DNA from: Carcharhinus longimanus
Lineage: Eukaryota
Assembly (NCBI GenBank): GCA_030264375.1
Contig: JASCQW010000190.1
Coordinates: 44,046,321-44,106,283 of the forward strand
Reading direction: 5' to 3'
Length of the DNA: 59,963 nucleotides
Of this stretch, positions 9,932 through 50,536 are shown piece by piece. The translations under genes were made by a program, and so were the position numbers. Within the stretch, counting starts at the first letter, position 1. Every line of letters starts with the position of its first letter. The notes under the pieces were generated by a model, which saw only the letters and a program-made list of their open reading frames with translations, did no database searches and had not been told where the DNA came from.

Positions 9932-10087
9932 CATGATGTGGAGATGCCGGCGTTGGACTGGGGCAAACACAGTAAGAAGTCTCACAACATCAGGTTAAAG
10001 TCCAACAGGTTTACTTGTTTATTTGTGGGTTTACTATCAAATAAACTGGTTGGACTTTAACCTGGTGTTGTGAGACTTCTTACTGTG
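9932..10087. mobile_element. Mini Penelope-type inverted-repeat element with TSD
   Basis: Arms acacagtaagaagtctcacaacatcaggttaaagtccaac / gttggactttaacctggtgttgtgagacttcttactgtgt; flanked by tcaatcttatgt (9920-9931) and tcaaccttatgt (10088-10099). Confidence 0.8.
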
Positions 10088-10234
10088 TCAACCTTATGTT
10101 GCAGTTCAGTCACTAACTTTTTACATGAGTCTCTGACCTGCCTGTTTTAGGCTTCAAATGGGCTACCCAGTGGGAGGAAGATATGCTCAGGTATAAATTA
10201 CCTATAACGTATAGGTAATTAGCCATTGTACACA

Positions 10235-32462: not shown

Positions 32463-34249
32463 ACAATAATATTGGAAGGATTTTTCTTCCTTTTGTGTTG
32501 CATATTTCGAGCTCTGTCTCAATATCTTAATTAAGGATTTGCATTATGTACAGCAAGGATTTGAAAAACTACTATGGCAGTAACTTTCATCGTAAAGTCA
32601 TCATTTATCATCTGATAATTTACTGAGAGGGAACATTTCATCATTAGTTAAGTACTTTGTGTTTATTCTATCTGTTCAAATGTTAAACTGTTGATTCTTA
32701 AAGTTCAGCATTTGCCATGTCGATATTTTAACGAGTTGTTATTGCCATTGTTAATACACTGTACACCAGTCATTGTAAGCCATCTAGGGTAAAATAATTG
32801 TTTTCCAAAACTTATAATTTCAACATGTTTTAAGTTTGTCCACATTTACTATTCCAGTTCATTTTTGTGTATTTTGTCCTTGGCAAAGATTGTGCCAGAC
32901 ACCTGCAGGAACTGGCTGGTTATGTGTAAACCTGGCATTGGTGTTGTATTTGTGTGATATTGAGGTGTTTGGTTCAGCACAATGCAAGCTGGTATGTACA
33001 GATCTTTGGCACCATATTGAAATAAGTTGTCCGTTGTGTGGCTGGTGAAAAAATGAATACTTGTGATAACAATTGCCATCTGAAGGGAGGTTATGAGAAC
33101 ACATGCTCATGCATATAAGCCTCACTGCTTACTATGATTAAGTTGAAGACAAATAAACAGCTACTGGTGAAACTAGACACTTACAACTGATACAATCACA
33201 GTGCATGTTGTGTACCCACGTTATGGCTGGGAGGATGGTGACAATGTACTCGCACATGTTATTCTAAGGTTATGATGTTCACCATGTCATTTTTGGGAGC
33301 TGATGGTATTTGCATTCAGAGCTGAAATTCACACGCATCAGTTGTCTGTTGATTAAACTTTTTGTTGCAAATATATACTTTATTCATAAAATATCTGAAA
33401 GAACATTGCAAACATTTCAAAATAGTTGTCACGGTATGATAATGTTCAGGCTTTCGACATAGATCATATTGCATTCTGAGGTGCTTCAGTACAGCCAAAG
33501 GAATGTTACAGACGTTTCAAGATGAACTAGTGATTACCTTCCTTGGGAGAGAGATAAGAGTCTTGGGGTTCAGGTGATTCTTTCATAAGGGAGAGAAAGT
33601 GGGGTTACATTGCAATTCTAGTGGATCCAAGATGATGTGTCTCATAATGGCAGTTCAGAATGAAGTCAACCAACATAGCTTGTAATTTTTATTTGTTGAA
33701 TGTGAGTGATTTGTTTAATTACAGAGGTCCTTTAAAGTTTATTGTGCTCTCGTGGTAACTTAAAGNNNNNNNNNNNNNNNNNNNNNNNNNNNNNNNNNNN
33801 NNNNNNNNNNNNNNNNNTTTTCCATTCCAGGAAGGCCTAGCTTCCAGGTAGCCAGCAGACTCTGTAATCTGATAGCTGACCCAGGCAGGTCCACACTACC
33901 CAAGGGCACTGTTAAAAATTAACTCACCAACCTGGCTCACAAATGAATCCTGAGGTTAAATTTGATGGGGTCCCAGGACTAAATTCACTCAGGTTTCAGG
34001 TAACTCTACTAATCAATGCCCCAGAGGATAGCACGTTCTCTGGTAAACAAGCTGTAGTAAGCTGCATTGTATTAACTACATAAACACCAGCAATAGCCTT
34101 TCAGACACATCCTAGGATCCTGACTCTGCACCAAAGAGTTCTGGACCTGGGAAAAAGATGTATGCTCCTATGTGTACATTCCAGATTGGACAAATAGATA
34201 GTGGATTTCTCAACTCGATTTAGGTTTAGTTGCTGCACATTTTTGTTTG

Positions 34250-35020
34250 CAAGAATGTACTTTATTCAAAAAAATCTGAAAGAAACATTACAAAACATTT
34301 CAAAATGTCACAAGAAAGTAAAATTATATTCACATCAGGATGCACTCTCGAGATGCTTCAATTTAGTATTGAAATATTGCAAATATTTCAATATTTTCAT
34401 TAAAGAGTACAATTCTGTTCAAATTATATACATTGGTCATGTTGCACTCAGACGTGTTTCAGCACAGTTATATATGATCAGGATTAAGCACACAATCCAC
34501 GGGGTTTCAATGGTTACTAGCCCCTTGGTGTACATTGGCTCAAGAGCCTTACACTGTGAGCTTTCCCCATTGCATTTTGGTGATGGCTGTTCCAAGCTTA
34601 ATAGCGTCCTTAAGCACATAGTCCTGGACCTTGGAATATGCCAGTCTGCAAAATCCAGTGGAGGACAATTCCTTGCATTGAAAGACCAATAGGTGTTGGG
34701 CAGCCCAAGGAGCATCTTTCACTGAGTTGGTGATCCTCCAGCAGCAGTGGATGTGTGTCTTGGTGTGCGTCCCCGGAAATAGCCCACAGAGCAGAATCCT
34801 GCGTCACAGAACTGCTTGGCGTGAATCTTGACGAAAACCGTTACGTCTCTTCAGACTAAAGACACATTTCAGAAGGCAGATTCCACAAGGAGGTGTGCAA
34901 CCATCTCTCTACTACCACAACCCCCCCCACCCCCCAAACAGTTGCTTCCAGTGCAGCATGATGTTGAGCGTGCATGGAGGATTGATGGGGAGTTCCCTTC
35001 TCACCAGAAGCCAAGCTGCA
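34250..35020 (-). mobile_element. Tx1-clade (L1 group) LINE ORF2 C-terminus and 3' UTR
   Basis: Minus strand reads ...GLFPGTHTKTHIHCCWRITNSVKDAPWAAQHLLVFQCKELSSTGFCRLAYSKVQDYVLKDAIKLG; AATAAA near the 3' end. Confidence 0.75.
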
Positions 35021-35089
35021 CATGTCAGACACAGTAAGAAGTCTCACAACATCAGGTTAAAGTCCAACAGGTTTATTTGGTAGCACAAG

Positions 35090-35130
35090 CCACTACCTTT
35101 CGGAGTGCTGCCCCTTCATCAGGTGAGTGG
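35090..35130 (-). ncRNA. Minimal type I hammerhead ribozyme motif (Penelope-associated)
   Basis: Minus strand: ccactcac-CTGATGA-aggggcagcactcc-GAAA-gg-TA-gtgg (both core boxes intact; stem III palindrome AGCT changed to AGGT). Confidence 0.7.
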
Positions 35131-35561
35131 CATTTCAGCTTACAAACAGGGCACATAAAGACACAAATTCAATTTACAAAGTAATGGTTGGAATGCGAGT
35201 CTTTACAGGTAATCAAGTCTTAAAGGTACAGACAATGTGAATGGAGAGAATGTTAAACACAAGTTAAAGAGATATGCGTTGTCTCCAGCCAGGCCAGTTA
35301 GTGAGATTTTTCAAGCCCAGGCAAATCTTGGGGGTTACACATGTCACACCATCTGCCCCCACGACTTGCCTGGGCTTGCAAAATCTCATTAACTGTCCTG
35401 GTTGGAGACAATACACATCTCTTTAATCTGTGCTTAACCCTCTCTCCACTCCAGTTGTCTGTACCTTTAAGACTTGATCAACAGTGAAGACTCACATTCC
35501 AACCATTATTTTGTAAATTGAGTTTGTGTCGTTATATACCCTGTTTTTGTGAACTGAAATC

Positions 35562-35602
35562 CCACTTGCCTGATGAAGGAGCGGCACTCCAAAAGCTAGT
35601 GG
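35562..35602 (+). ncRNA. Minimal hammerhead motif, degenerate copy
   Basis: ccacttgc-CTGATGA-aggagcggcactcc-AAAA-gc-TA-gtgg (GAAA to AAAA, consistent with CpG decay). Confidence 0.6.
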
Positions 35603-36968
35603 CTTGTCTACCAAATAAACCTGTCGGACTTTAACTTGGTGTTGTGAGACTTCTTGTTGTGTTTAACCCAGTCCAATGCCAGCATTTCCACATCATGTCA
35701 GACACCCAGCTAGAAGTCACCCAGCTGACAAGAAGACAATGCAACTAAGGAGAAAAGGCTTCAAATTTCATGACCCCAGGATCAGAACCACATCTCTTAC
35801 ACTGAGACTAGGATCAAGAACTTTCCAAGGGTAACCTCATATGCAAAGATATCCATTTCCTGCCACAATGTCAACGTCACAATGTAGTGTTTTATTGGTT
35901 TCCTATGCCAGACCTCTTGTAGCCTACCTTAAAACATTATCAATTTTACCCACGAAGAAACTGGATTGAGATTACCTAAATACATTTAATACAAGAACTT
36001 CACAGCCAGCAGGTGGATTTAACCAATTCCCAATGATGAAAGATAAGTAGATAATCAACAATGCTACCTAATCATGTTTTTCTAATGTTTGTTCATTTTG
36101 TATTGTAAACAAAATATCTGTAATTAAAAAAAATACAGGTAATAAACTATCTCCTTTAGTTTACATCACGTAGGGCAACTAAAAAGGTGAATAGCTATTA
36201 ATCTTTTTACTATTACTGGATGCTGGCTCTTTCATGGCTACAGCTTGTTGATACGCTCTGGTCAGCACAATCACTCACTAAGGTCCACAAGTGACAAATC
36301 TCTAGATTCATTGCTGTACGTGATCTGCCATTTTTATACTGTGCCTTGTGCACCTACTGTTAACTGTTCCTCTTGAATTGGCAGGAATTAAGGGAAGCTA
36401 TGGTCTAGAACAAATGGTGTAATTATATTAACAAGAACACACTGGTGCACAGATTCATTTATATGTTGCGATTGGCTAAGTGCATTACTATATCCTTGAT
36501 AGCCCCTCGAATTAAAAAATATCCAAATTGCCCAAGAATCCAATCTAGTTAATCATCACTACTAAGAATGTTGATTTTGTTTGTTCATTACTTATAGAGA
36601 TTATATATTTTAAGAGCAATAGATTGCCTCAATAAGATGAGGGATTTCTATTTGCGCCTCCCTTTCTTTTTGGGACACTGCTTGCTTGGCCCATATACTA
36701 CCTCCCACAAAGGAATTTGTTAATTGAATGTAAAGCCGAATTGTCCATTGTATTTCACATAATAGTTGATTTGAATTGGCTTCTGTCCCAAAGTATGCAT
36801 AAGAACCAACAAGATGACTACAACCAATTGAAAATCCATACCGTCAACAGTGTAGATTAAATCAATTTTAATCCCCTTAACCCTGCCCCTTCCAGTTCTT
36901 CACTAATTGATTTCTTGGGAGAGTCACAGAGACGTCTAGTTTGTCAGTCAGTGTCTACTGACCCACTG

Positions 36969-45707: not shown

Positions 45708-46036
45708 GGGTGGCATGGTGGCAAGCACTGCTGCCTCACCAGTGCCAGGGGCCCAGCCTTGGGTGACTGAAGTTTGCATGTTCTCCCTGTTTCTGTGAGA
45801 GTTTCCTCTGGGTGCTCTGGTTTTCTCCCACACTCCAAAGATGTGCAGCTTAGGTGGATTGGCTATTGCTAATTGCCCTTCAGTGTCTCAAGGTGTGTAG
45901 GTTGAGGAGGGGCGAAGGGGTAAATAAATAGGGTTACAGGGATAGGGCAGGGGGAGAAGGCCAAGGTAGGATACTCTATCGGAGAGTTGGTGTAGTCTGG
46001 ATGGGGCGAATGGCCTCCTGCACTGTAGGGATTCTT
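45708..46036 (+). mobile_element. HE1-like V-SINE nested in a degraded minus-strand CR1 (about 45590-46330)
   Basis: gggtggcatggtggc...gcactgctgcctcac...tttgcatgttctccc...cactgtagggattct. Confidence 0.8.
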
Positions 46037-46439
46037 CTAAGGTTTATTGCCCCTGTTTTGAGATCCTCACCACAGCAAATAGTTCCTCTCCACCTGCCCA
46101 ATCAAATCCTCCAATCATCTTAAAAACTTCAATTAGATCACCCACTAAACTTCTATCCTCACAGGAATCTTTACCGAGTCTATGCAACTGTTCGATAATC
46201 TAATCCTGTTAGCTAGCCTCAGTGTCCTGCCAATTAATCTATATCTTGACTGTCCCAGAATTGAACCCAGTATTAAAATAGGGTTGAAGCAGATTTTATA
46301 CAACTGTAGCTAACTTCCACCTAATCCCTGTGAGATTAAGGTTAGCATTTCTTTAAGCAAATCAACGTTTAACTTTTTAAAAGGCCGTAAATGTTGCAAG
46401 CTGTAAGTAAATGGTAAAATAAGCAAACTTTTTTTTTAA

Positions 46440-47260
46440 AAAGTCAGTAAATTGTGCTGGGAATGGAGAGTTTGCTTCCCTTCGTACGCTCGGAAAAATA
46501 CAGGGAAACAATTTGGAGTGCAGCTATTATTATTTCTCTGCAGCTGCTCTGGCTGGCTGCAATGTGTGACAGGGGCTGGGCTGTGAGCACGGGCGGCGCT
46601 TTGAGGCTGTGCAGCCTGAACTTGCCGCCGCTGGACTGGAGACAAGTCTGGCTCCGAGAGGTAGCTTCACAGTGAGGCACAGACTGCAGAGAGAGAGGCT
46701 GGCTGCTGATCGCCCCTCCCCCCAAAACCCTCTGTCAGCAGCTCTGTGCACAACTGGTGGCTCCGGCTCGCCCAGCGCTACAGAGAGGAAGGGAAGGGAA
46801 AAGAAGGAGCAGCGAAGTGGGAGAGGGGAGGAAGCAAATTCTTGAGAGGAGTGAGTAAGTGAGCGAGCTGCTTCTCTGTGGACCGGGATATGCTGCCAAA
46901 CCGACTCCTTCCCGTTTCAAGCTGCTGCCTGCCCGCAGGAAACGCTGCAGAGCTTCGTTTTTAACAGACTGACTGGCAGCTGGACTCCCTCTGAAGCTAC
47001 ATTGCAGCCATGTAAGAACTGTTTCTGCATTCTCGCTTGATTTTCTTTTTATTTTTCACCCACCCCTTCTCTTTCTCACACACATTGCGTTGAAGATTTA
47101 TTTTCTTGGCATCAAGTTGCCCCGAGAACGCCTTTGTAAAATGGGTGGAAAATCTGCTGTAACGGAACGTGGGCGCCTCCGGCCCCCAGGACTTTGTTTT
47201 CGTTTCCCAAGCAGAAATGTGTTTAAAAAAAAAGCTGGAAAGAGTGGGATCCAGAGGCGA
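46440..47260 (+). promoter_or_regulatory. CpG-enriched promoter / first exon of an unidentified gene
   Basis: Local CpG and GC enrichment, GC-box-like gggcggcg, AG-rich UTR-like sequence, donor-like sites gtgagtaagt (about 46851) and AT|gtaaga (47012); no repeats. Confidence 0.6.
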
Positions 47261-47619
47261 GGTTAAAATAAATTCTTGTCATTTGAAGTGATCCCTGGGA
47301 GTGACTGTGAATCTGGGTCCTCAGCAGATTCAGATTCAATGCTTTGAGGAGGGGAAACAGGATTGCCACGAATAGCAGCCAGTGTTACATTGTTCAGATT
47401 GAAAACTTTCCGTTTTTATTTTTCTTTTGAGGAGATTGTGGGGAAGATAGAGGCGAGTTGCTGGGAATGAGATGTTTGCCAGTGGATTGTGACATTTTGC
47501 TCCTCAGATGCCAGTGAAGGGAAACAGGATTGGCCACCGAGAGAGGGAAAAGCTTCAACATTGGAGGGGGCAACAGCTAGTGGCAGGAGGCAACAAGCTA
47601 GACTTTGCACCCTTACCTT

Positions 47620-47960
47620 TCATAAACACTGTCACATACCCACCCTCTGCCCTCTCCCCTAATTGCCTCCACCCCTGCCTCTCCCATGGTTGCCCCACTC
47701 TCTTGATTGCTGCCCCCCCCGCATGGTTGGCTTGGCCCCCTCTCCTGGTCACCCTCCCCTTCCCCTTTCTCATGGTGAACCCCTGTTCCCCCTCGTCATG
47801 CCTCCCCTCCTGTCACCCACTCGACCCCTTTCTTTTAACAGCCTTGCCCACACCACCTCCCCGTCATATAATATTTGTCCACCCCTTCCCAAAGTGTGTG
47901 TTTGGCCACCTCCTCCCTCCTGTACCTTTCCATTCACCCCTCCCTTTCCTGTTTCTTTAT
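47620..47960. repeat. C-rich polypyrimidine low-complexity tract (G4-prone on the minus strand)
   Basis: Many CCC/CCCC runs. Confidence 0.7.
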
Positions 47961-50536
47961 TCCTCACGTGTGAGTGTGGGTGCTGGGAGGTTGGTGCACT
48001 TGTCATGAATTATAGCCTTTGGGGATTTGTAATTTAGTACATTATTCTCTGTAAAGTGGCAGCGGCTGAGCAGACTACATCACAATGCTGAGCTGCTTGT
48101 TGGGGACCGGCTGTATCTGTTTCCTCCTTCGTGTCTGTGCACACTGGAAACTTGGATGAAGGAACTGGCTGGGTTGCTGGTTCGTTTTGCATGTTGTCAT
48201 GAATTGATTTTCATACTTTATGAGAAATATTTTTGCAGACAAAGAGTAACCTTTTCTAATTAAATTATAGATGCCCACAATTTATTACTCTGCAGCTACT
48301 GTTATAATGCTGATGAAATTTGATAACCTCAAACTAGTAAAAGTTGATAGCAAACAAAAATGCTGATAAAGCCCTCAAAACAAGTGGGCAACCAATTAGC
48401 TTTGAATTTACATTTGAAATGTCACTGAAAACAAGTTCATTTGTTACGCCATACAGCACGATTAGTGGGATTCATGTTGTGGCTAAGATTCCAGCACTTG
48501 TATGTGGTTTTGATCCTGTAATACCAAAGTGCTATTTATAGCAATTTTAGAAATGCAGGGGAGCTTGGTGATGAAGAAGAATCCAGCTTTATTTTCTGGA
48601 TAAGAGGCAAATATTGATTTTTTTTTTTGGGGGGGNNNNNNNNNNNNNNNNNNNNNNNNNNNNNNNNNNNNNNNNNNNNNNNNNNNNNNNNNNNNNNNNN
48701 NNNNNNNNNNNNAAATGACCACAAGTGTTCAGACTTGGTGTGATTTTGTAAGGTTCAGTACCCAGCTTCCCACTCCCAAAATAAGTTGCCTTTTGAAATT
48801 AAACATTTACAACACGTCCATGAAAAAAATGATTAGTTTAAGGTGCCTAACACTTTGTAGTGTGACTCAATATGTATTGGATTGCATTATTAATGAGACA
48901 TGATTTCTTGCCACCTTCATGCACGGTGGTAGCAATCATTAAAAACAGATATGTTTATATGTTTATCCCATCCAGTGTTGTGTGGATTTGGACCTTTGTA
49001 CTGTGATGTCAGTGTAATGGAGGTGAATGCATTTTGCTATCCACCTTTGTTTCAGCTATGTTTTATGCCAACGACTGAACATTAACATGATTAGTTCAAT
49101 TGTGAATGTATTTTAGAACTATTATGTGTAAATCACTCACAGCCACTCCATCTGAGATATATGTATGTAATCCAGGAAATTTGAAAGAGTGTAGTGAGAG
49201 TAATCTAACTAAGATTGTTCAGGTGAAATGTCGGTGGAGGTTGAGCTGTGCAGTGTTGACAACTTTTGGCTTCTGTCATTGCTGCTTTGTAGTTGACCGG
49301 CAGGAAGTTCATTTCTGTGGGACTAATTACTTGCTCACTCCATCGATCATTTTGATTTTATTAGTATCCAACGTTATTCTGATTGGAATTAGTTATTGTA
49401 TGCAGAGAAATCAACCTAATATTCTATATATTGTGAAAAAAAATCTGGCTGGTCTTGTGAAGCCTGGGTCTCCCCCCAGAACTTGACATTTCCTTTTTAA
49501 AGTTCTTTTAAAAATTGGTAATGTGTGCCACTTGACTTGGTAAAGTGCCATATATAAGCCTTGGTACCATATTAACCAGTAGAAGTGATTAAGGATGAGG
49601 TTGTAAATTCAAAGCAACCCTAAGTTTAAATGAAAATTTTTAAATTTGAATTTGGGAAAAATTGGGAAAAATTTGGGATCTTTGTCAGCTATTCCATGAA
49701 GTGCATTGTTCACCAGTTCATTGTTTCCCATCACCAGTTTTAAAATAATGTTGGTAACATGTCTGATCATTCACTTATACACAAGTTGTCCACCTTGCAC
49801 TTCCTCTAGGTGAGAAGAAGAAAAACACAACTTTACATTTTTGGGAACACCAGTTCAGTCTTGGCTATGTGTGAGCCAGGAACTGCAGTGAGTAATTAAG
49901 ATGTGGAATGCAGGATCTTAACGTTTTAATGCAGGTAGTTTGAATCCGGCTGTGTGCAGGCTTTTGAAGTGCCAAAGCGGACATGAATCTGAATGCTATT
50001 GATGTAAATTATGAATAGTTGGCGTGTCTGAGCTGGCTATCCAAAATTTATTGATGCATTTTGGAGCCAGCTCTAAGCCCGATTTTAGTTGCCAGGACCA
50101 TGACACATTTGTTTTGCCTTTTTGTTTGATGATTATGTGGATACTTTAGTTCTATATTGACATGTCTATCTCAAAGGTTTAGTAATAACTTCCAATTCTC
50201 TGACAATCTTAGCTATAAGTCTAATAGCTGAATCACTATTTGGATCTCTGGTTACATTCCTTACAGTCTGGCTTGCATCTTATTCAGAGGTTCTGTTGTT
50301 GAAACATCGCAAGGAAATTGGAAATTTGGAAATTATGTTGTGTCATTTAAACTCATGATAGGTTATTGCTTGAATTTTCTGACATGTCTCTGGAGTGTCA
50401 GCCATTAGGATATTAGGTCAGAGAGCTGGATGGCATATAGCCTCTTAGCTGCAATTAAGATATGTTTCCACTAACCCTATCCAAAAGTTTTTGCTGGTCA
50501 ATACCATTTATCGGGTGTACCCCTTTTAACACATTT

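What the first reader, a model, noticed from the sequence alone, without database searches (positions are those of the whole stretch)
35021..35705. ~680-bp TSD-flanked palindrome carrying a hammerhead ribozyme motif in each arm
Seen: two ~300-bp inverted arms with almost no spacer, a 12-bp direct repeat catgtcagacac at both ends, and a CTGATGA...GAAA..TA core closed by a short stem in each arm (core intact on the minus strand, GAAA to AAAA on the plus strand). Known: Penelope-like elements carry minimal type I hammerheads in their pLTRs and often insert as inverted structures; these minimal hammerheads are thought to cleave as dimers. Inference: this is a non-coding, ribozyme-bearing mobile unit. 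Transcription from either side would give a long dsRNA hairpin that pairs each ribozyme with its own antisense, a possible self-inhibiting switch and a substrate for ADAR or Dicer.
Basis: partly seen in the sequence, partly recalled or inferred. Interest (0 to 1): 0.7.

Follow-up and report, generated by a model that had tools for sequence, protein, structure and literature searches.

The report
Decayed head-to-head Penelope retrotransposon ends
This 685-base DNA palindrome is two back-to-back end pieces of a very common Penelope-type jumping gene, a known and ordinary insertion shape, and both of its self-cutting RNA motifs carry mutations predicted to disable them.

Summary
The palindrome is real: arms 271/316 identical, a 12-bp direct repeat at both ends, and a minimal hammerhead (HHR) in each arm. 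It is not a separate non-coding element. Both arms are the 3' end (pLTR) of a high-copy RT + GIY-YIG Penelope-like family with Neptune-type motifs, about 10^5 insertions by sampling. They are 86% identical to the pLTR of a full-length copy. Head-to-head pairs are a usual insertion form (10 of 40 unselected insertions). In 41 of 45 classifiable pairs one arm has the ~35-nt tail and the other lacks it. This junction has no second match in the genome. Both HHRs are damaged: G12A on the right, a broken dimer palindrome on the left. The arms differ as much as unrelated copies (12.4% vs 10.8±2.8%), so there is no sign of a selected dsRNA switch. The architecture is published (PMC3846280, PMC8557442, PMC4209133), and this scan noted it in at least 21 genomes. 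One small addition: the one-tail rule, longer tail-less arms in 19 of 41 pairs, and microhomology at both outer ends favour priming from both cut strands.

The parts
35021..35032 (+). Left copy of the 12-bp target-site duplication; its last 4 bases also match the outer end of the left arm
35029..35339 (-). Left arm: 5'-truncated pLTR without the tail; 7.9% non-CpG divergence from the family majority (24 of 304 sites)
35090..35126 (-). Minimal type I hammerhead: core boxes intact, helix II 4 bp, helix III palindrome broken (AGCU to AGGU, base 35096)
   Evidence: one search shows about 98% of family depth with the other base at 35096
35325..35345 (.). Head-to-head junction. Two bases of the left arm (35325, 35328) match the ORF-end sequence instead of the pLTR, hinting at annealing through a natural imperfect hairpin of the template
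   Evidence: inference from one locus
35340..35697 (+). Right arm: last codons of the PLE ORF + pLTR + tail; 6.4% non-CpG divergence (22 of 345 sites)
35340..35355 (+). Last codons of the RT/GIY-YIG ORF (other copies read ...DLGFMSHYL-stop); the stop codon is deleted in this copy
   Evidence: table 4
35566..35602 (+). Minimal type I hammerhead with G12 changed to A at 35591 (CpG decay; 40 of 117 sampled copies share it)
35663..35697 (+). ~35-nt PLE tail, ending at the ATG that opens the ORF in a full-length copy (L210)
35694..35705 (+). Right copy of the TSD; its first 4 bases also match the end of the tail

Best explanation
The palindrome is a single, old, 5'-truncated insertion of an abundant endonuclease-bearing Penelope-like retrotransposon, in which two pLTR copies lie head to head between a 12-bp TSD, and it was likely built at this site and is likely a neutral relic. 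Shown: both arms are the pLTR of an RT + GIY-YIG family; the head-to-head, one-tail layout with a ~12-bp TSD is a usual product of the family; the junction has no second match; both hammerheads are mutated; the arms have diverged like unrelated copies. Inferred (about 0.55): the element's protein cut both target strands about 12 bp apart. Each 3' end primed reverse transcription of element RNA, one at the tail end and one about 35 nt upstream, helped by a few bases of microhomology. Both cDNAs stopped near the ORF/pLTR border and were joined there. The hammerhead was functional in the active master elements, likely as a dimer or with protein help, and is a passenger here. A read-through RNA would form a long hairpin, but as a by-product.
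For: Copies run upstream into GIY-YIG and RT sequence with 5' truncation. RVT_1 hits at E 2e-6 and 3e-6, just under Pfam's cut-off. Homologues are shark proteins, 4 of 10 with PF00078. A full-length decayed copy (L210: inverted pLTR, tail, ATG, RT, EN, pLTR) has pLTRs 86% identical to both arms. At least 9,880 candidates; 41 insertions in 570,038 unselected bases. Head-to-head: 10 of 40 unselected; 0 tail-to-tail among 165 non-edge insertions. One tail plus one tail-less end in 41 of 45 classifiable pairs, p = 5e-9 against 0.5. The tail-less arm reaches over 30 nt further in 19 of 41 pairs, which simple fold-back from a tailed cDNA cannot give. TSD in 21 of 47 pairs vs 1 of 270 controls. Microhomology sums to 39 nt over 27 clean ends vs 10.5 expected, reached in 0 of 200,000 simulations. 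Junction found once. Arm-to-arm divergence 0.124 vs 0.108±0.028 for 3,001 unrelated pairs. Core plus palindrome intact in only 29 of 105 copies not picked for the HHR. In vitro, a PLE protein cuts and extends both strands and starts RT at two sites flanking the tail (PMC11167929).
Against: For this copy the arms reach almost equally far (360 vs 349 nt from the 3' end) and the junction is a mosaic, so fold-back or self-priming is not excluded here; 14 of 41 pairs are of this equal class. Arms of one insertion share subfamily alleles (35 of 68 vs 15% between loci), which fits one RNA as well as fold-back. PMC11167929 saw no strand difference in RT start site and initiation without homology, unlike the one-tail rule and microhomology seen here. 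Core non-CpG positions are slightly less mutated than the rest (38/981 = 3.9% vs 5.3%). No empty-site allele was seen (only 15 of 731 joints were shown). Pfam gave no GIY-YIG hit for 3 of 3 EN fragments, so the EN call rests on motifs. 26 of 47 pairs show no TSD at my threshold.
Confidence: 0.86

Rival explanations
1. Same element, but the inverted arm was made by fold-back or self-priming (the cDNA snaps back and copies itself, or an antisense RNA self-primes, as proposed in PMC3846280), with the endonuclease trimming the tail-less end.
For: Equal arm reach here and in 14 of 41 pairs. Shared subfamily alleles between arms. A mosaic junction at a natural imperfect hairpin. A pile-up of arm ends at the HHR start: 10 of 29 unselected two-orientation arms end 124-142 nt from the 3' end.
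Against: In 19 of 41 pairs the tail-less arm holds sequence absent from the tailed arm. One insertion (L068) has arms discordant at 11 of 11 subfamily sites.
Confidence: 0.3
2. The 685-bp palindrome is itself a non-autonomous, ribozyme-bearing mobile unit (retrozyme- or MITE-like) that is copied whole.
For: It has its own TSD, no ORF and two HHR motifs. Other tight palindromes exist (L031, L032, L059).
Against: The junction 20-mer matches only itself at <=1 mismatch. At 14% pairwise divergence each sister would be caught about 1 time in 5 (my estimate), so a family of 15 or more is unlikely to be missed. Other palindromes have different junctions and reaches, 58 to 1,989 nt. It is not a head-to-tail tandem, and each strand has one sense HHR.
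Confidence: 0.04
3. The hairpin has been kept by the host as a regulatory dsRNA (self-inhibited ribozyme switch, endo-siRNA source or ADAR substrate).
For: Very stable predicted hairpin. The insertion appears shared with at least one related organism: run X19's contig 35661-36300 crosses the right junction. PMC3846280 reports small RNAs from rotifer Penelope copies.
Against: The arms are no more alike than unrelated copies. Only 3 shared derived sites of 299, equal in number to the 3 subfamily alleles the arms share. Both HHRs are mutated. The shape is present in about a quarter of unselected insertions.
Confidence: 0.03
4. Two independent insertions landed back to back, or the arms are TIRs of a DDE transposon.
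For: The arms differ at 3 of 6 informative polymorphic sites.
Against: One TSD spans both arms. The one-tail rule and the lack of tail-to-tail pairs argue for single events. The arms map to the pLTR of an RT element, not to a TIR.
Confidence: 0.02

Closest known systems
EN+ Penelope-like element insertions with inverted 5'-truncated pLTR, one-sided 30-40 bp tail and TSD (Adineta Pen2/Pen2a, PMC3846280; PMC8557442 fig. 2 legend; passages read)
   Same: Head-to-head pLTRs, tail on one arm, inverted arm about 35-37 bp shorter, TSD of 8-16 bp.
   Different: Both arms are truncated at the ORF/pLTR border, so no ORF is left. The host is likely a shark. The one-tail rule is counted here (41 of 45).
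Minimal type I hammerheads of metazoan PLEs (Cervera & de la Pena 2014, PMC4209133; parts 1-2 of 4 read)
   Same: CUGAUGA, one extra base before helix II, G-C closing pair, palindromic helix III stub, 4-bp helix I. That paper already notes dual min-HHRs 100-700 bp apart on opposite strands.
   Different: Helix II is 5 bp here, shorter than the 7-8 bp of Schistosoma. Both copies in this locus are mutated. Cleavage was not tested.
Poseidon_Ac / PAc of Anolis (Frangieh et al. 2024, PMC11167929; parts 1-2 of 4 read)
   Same: Two end classes about 35 nt apart matching two RT start sites; HHR in the pLTR upstream of the tail.
   Different: This family has a CX4CxxC linker (Neptune/Nematis type). Its long ORF starts at the tail end; the AUG inside its HHR opens only 8 codons. 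Genomic ends show microhomology, whereas PAc initiated without homology in vitro.
Non-LTR retrozymes (bioRxiv 10.64898/2026.07.22.740005; parts 1-2 of 5 and passages read)
   Same: Non-coding, pLTR-derived, type I HHR, similar unit length (363 bp average in their one chondrichthyan).
   Different: Retrozymes are head-to-tail tandems with an intact HHR in each unit. This is head-to-head with damaged HHRs.

Membership tests
EN+ Penelope-like element | PLE-type RT with DKG motif upstream of the pLTR in family members | tested here: met
   (RVT_1 E 2e-6, 28.2 bits, below the 29.6 cut-off; KPADKGG in L201)
EN+ Penelope-like element | C-terminal GIY-YIG endonuclease with two Cys between the GIY and YIG boxes | tested here: met
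   Motif VYLIRCRKGCPEVWYIGE and downstream R/H/E/N residues in L048 and others. No Pfam hit in 3 of 3 fragments, so this is by motif only.
EN+ Penelope-like element | pLTR, optional 30-40 bp tail, inverted 5'-truncated copy, TSD | tested here: met
Neptune clade | CX2-5CxxC Zn-finger-like linker between RT and EN (shared with Nematis, absent in Penelope/Poseidon) | tested here: met
   CHSNLCKTC-type motif in several copies; definition from PMC8557442
Neptune clade | RT phylogeny groups with Neptune references | not testable with these tools
   No Repbase or Dfam reference set was available; no tree was built
Minimal type I hammerhead (family level) | Core boxes, helices I and II, palindromic helix III stub | tested here: met
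   2,730 genome matches vs 0 for the reversed control. 92% of cells paired vs 22-46% for slid controls.
Minimal type I hammerhead (family level) | Covariation in helix II | tested here: met
   3 of 5 helix II pairs change on both sides. Third pair: A-U 63, G-C 28, G-U 22, A-C 7, other 3 of 123 (includes loci picked for C). These reflect few independent events.
Minimal type I hammerhead (family level) | Rfam hammerhead model hit | tested here: inconclusive
   No hit here and none in 8 other loci, 6 of them picked for an intact core, so Rfam does not see this minimal form
Active hammerhead (these two copies) | G12 present and dimer-competent helix III | tested here: not met
   Right copy G12A; left copy AGGU. 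G12 as general base: PMC6155905 passage.
Active hammerhead (these two copies) | Self-cleavage in vitro | not testable with these tools
   Needs a bench assay
Non-LTR retrozyme | Head-to-tail tandem of units, each with a complete HHR | tested here: not met
   Head-to-head, damaged HHRs
Mobile palindromic unit (MITE-like) | Same whole unit, with the same junction, at several loci | tested here: not met
DDE transposon TIR | Arms are termini of a transposase-bearing element | tested here: not met
   Arms map to the 3' UTR/pLTR of an RT + EN ORF

The most novel reading that the evidence does not exclude
These insertions record an asymmetric double-primed integration. A PLE dimer cuts both target strands about 12 bp apart and primes two RNA-templated cDNAs, one obligatorily from each of the two RT start sites, with short microhomology at both ends, then joins the truncated cDNAs head to head. 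This would explain the inverted pLTR and the one-sided tail of PLEs without antisense self-priming.
Probability: 0.5. Interest if true: 0.5.

Novelty: new member of a known kind. Interest (0 to 1): 0.17.

Why it matters
The locus itself is an ordinary repeat relic. Its family matters a little. How PLEs make inverted pLTRs and one-sided tails is still called undefined in PMC8557442, and a genome with about 10^5 such insertions gives countable rules (one tail per pair, microhomology at both ends, either arm longer) that the existing in vitro PLE assay can test. It also means that many long imperfect hairpins are scattered through this genome as possible background substrates for dsRNA pathways.

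Tried and rejected
Rfam: no hammerhead hit at E<=10 in the region or in 8 other loci; only miRNA-like chance hairpin hits. Uninformative. Monomer folding of four HHR segments gave z from +0.5 to -1.7, as expected for a motif without a stable helix III. Expression: no RNA holder listed. Four runs guessed to be RNA held family-level contigs, with no cover of the right flank; this says nothing about this locus. Empty site: none among the joints shown (most joints were not shown). Host gene: 0 of 109 stop-free stretches of >=78 aa scanned hit Pfam at E<=1e-4 (4 of 113 low-complexity ones were left out), so whether the site is intronic is unknown. PDB search with the RT gave nothing under E 0.6. 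The protein atlas gave no result. Paper searches: 'Penelope + shark + hammerhead ribozyme' gave 1 review; 'Penelope-like + twin priming + inverted' gave 2 papers, seen as listings only; 'Penelope + Neptune + cartilaginous + transposable element' gave 1, seen as a listing only. None of these listings or the passages I read describes this shark family or double priming of PLEs, but most subscription papers, Repbase and all supplements were not seen. My first guess of Penelope/Poseidon was dropped once the linker Cys motif was found.

Full report
1. Observation. The arms align at 271 of 316 positions, the 12-bp repeat sits at 35021-35032 and 35694-35705, and the predicted RNA hairpin is far beyond shuffles (-441 kcal/mol, z -36.5). 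A hammerhead core lies in each arm. Three refinements: 4 bases at each end of the repeat also match the element's ends; the arms are asymmetric, the right one carrying a ~35-nt tail and the last codons of an ORF; and the minus-strand hammerhead has lost the self-complementary AGCU of helix III.

2. What the arms are. The right arm has at least 9,880 candidate matches in the 2.68-Gb genome, and the best non-self copies are 86-91% identical. In most of the 29 other top copies the sequence continues upstream, with varying 5' truncation, into an ORF end. Longer copies show RT sequence (RVT_1 E 2e-6 and 3e-6, just under the curated cut-off), a DKG motif, a CX4CxxC linker and a GIY-YIG-type segment with two internal cysteines (Pfam did not score the latter). 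By the definitions in PMC8557442 (passages) the linker points to Neptune or Nematis rather than Penelope/Poseidon; no tree was built. L210 is a decayed full-length copy: inverted tail-less arm, tail remnant, ATG, N-terminus, RT, EN, then pLTR running into a gap. Its pLTRs are 86% identical to both window arms. All 10 protein homologues are annotated from sharks, so the host is likely a shark.

3. How common the shape is. I sampled 61 stretches not chosen for the element: the window, 200 kb beside it, and 40 spaced 10-kb pieces, 570,038 non-N bases in all. They held 41 insertions. The 40 spaced pieces alone give about 1.5 x 10^5 genome-wide (18 in 322,251 bases). Of 40 not cut by an edge, 10 are complete head-to-head pairs, all with one tailed and one tail-less end. 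A second, smaller one lies in this window at 9933-10088. Adding loci picked by similarity or by HHR pattern (15 loci duplicating another were dropped) gives 165 non-edge insertions, 47 pairs and 0 tail-to-tail. Of the 47 pairs, 41 have one tail, 3 none, 1 two, and 2 are unclassifiable. TSDs of 8-16 bp (median 12) were found in 21 of 47 pairs vs 1 of 270 controls. This is the layout described for EN+ PLEs in PMC3846280 and PMC8557442 (passages). PMC4209133 already mentions dual minimal HHRs 100-700 bp apart on opposite strands.

4. Is the palindrome a unit that moves? Arm reach varies from 58 to 1,989 nt and junctions differ from locus to locus. A tight-palindrome pattern found 3 loci with 3 different junctions. 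The window's junction 20-mer matches only itself at <=1 mismatch. A very small family could be missed, but the simplest reading is that it was made at this site.

5. The hammerhead. At family level it is real. There are 2,730 intact-core matches vs 0 for the reversed control. In 30 aligned copies 92% of cells pair, vs 22-46% when partners are slid, and 3 of 5 helix II pairs change on both sides (28 of these rows were picked for an intact core, and 2 loci with a longer loop were left out). The third pair runs A-U 63, G-U 22, G-C 28, A-C 7, other 3 of 123; these reflect few independent events. Rfam misses even intact copies. At locus level it is decayed. The right copy lost G12, the general base (PMC6155905 passage), by CpG decay shared with 40 of 117 copies. 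The left copy cannot form the palindromic dimer helix. Only 29 of 105 copies not picked for the HHR keep core and palindrome. In the one PLE tested in vitro, the HHR needed protein and was dispensable for insertion (PMC11167929).

6. Is the hairpin selected? Each arm is 6-8% from the family majority. Arm-to-arm divergence is 0.124, against 0.108±0.028 for 3,001 unrelated pairs. Across all same-insertion pairs it is 0.111 vs 0.114. The arms share 3 derived sites of 299, the same number as the subfamily alleles they share. There is no sign of homogenisation or compensation. Contigs of a related organism (X19) cross the right junction, with about 2% flank differences; those of X15 and X16 reach only 29 letters into the element. 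The insertion therefore likely predates that split. Expression could not be judged.

7. Mechanism (inferred). The one-tail rule (41 of 45, p 5e-9 against the 0.5 maximum for independent choice) and the two end classes match the two RT start sites and both-strand extension reported for PAc. In 19 of 41 pairs the tail-less arm holds sequence that the tailed arm lacks. Fold-back from a tailed cDNA cannot supply that, and a tail-less cDNA cannot supply the tail. Overlap between TSD and template sums to 39 nt over the 27 ends without untemplated bases (of 42 ends), vs 10.5 expected; it is 4 + 4 in this element. I therefore favour priming from both cut strands, usually on RNA of one subfamily (35 of 68 shared alleles vs 15%; one insertion discordant at 11 of 11). 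Against it: 14 of 41 pairs, including this one, have equal reach; this junction is a mosaic at a natural imperfect hairpin; microhomology at the second end is also expected when a second strand is primed on a cDNA end; and PAc showed neither strand asymmetry nor homology in vitro. For this copy alone fold-back stays open (about 0.3).

8. Novelty. The architecture and motif are known. I found no description of this family in the papers I could search; Repbase and supplements were not seen. The scan's own notes list 108 similar findings in at least 21 genomes, several with the same double-priming idea. I had reached the PLE reading before that look-up and counted the one-tail rule in the same turn; those notes are not independent support. 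Verdict: an ordinary decayed PLE insertion with modest value as mechanistic data; interest 0.17.

Noticed in passing
window 9933-10088: A second, 156-bp head-to-head insertion of the same family (tailed arm on -, tail-less on +) with a 12-bp TSD carrying one mismatch; both arms stop short of the hammerhead.
   Followed up: yes
family-wide: Arm 5' ends pile up 124-142 nt from the 3' end, at the start of the hammerhead: 10 of 29 unselected two-orientation arms and 2 of 18 solo arms, vs 1-5 and 1 in neighbouring bins. This could be an RNA 5' end, an RT stop at the ribozyme fold, or annealing at the imperfect palindrome around the core's start.
   Followed up: partly
L068 (G000:C190:42381000-42390999), 1268-2443: Head-to-head insertion whose arms disagree at 11 of 11 subfamily-type sites: two different templates in one insertion, or two insertions. 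No TSD was found.
   Followed up: partly
L210 1139-4402: Decayed full-length copy of the partner element. The tail ends at the ATG of the long ORF, while the AUG inside the hammerhead core opens only an 8-codon frame.
   Followed up: partly
proteins P0003, P0006-P0009: Fragments of this family's ORF appear inside annotated shark host-gene isoforms (NOXP20-like, CYP2C31-like, septin 5a, XRCC5, PPP1R12A-like); these are either exonised pieces or annotation artefacts.
   Followed up: no
window 8287 and 8843 (+): Two near-identical CTGATGA...GAAA motifs 556 bp apart in a direct repeat, with no helix II; likely another repeat, not a hammerhead.
   Followed up: no
window 33359-33423 and 34241-34306: Two ~60-nt direct copies 882 bp apart (72% identical) just left of the element; possibly ends of another repeat.
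   Followed up: no
window about 46000-48000: The most GC-rich 2-kb bin of the window (49%), a possible promoter region; no host gene was identified by Pfam.
   Followed up: partly
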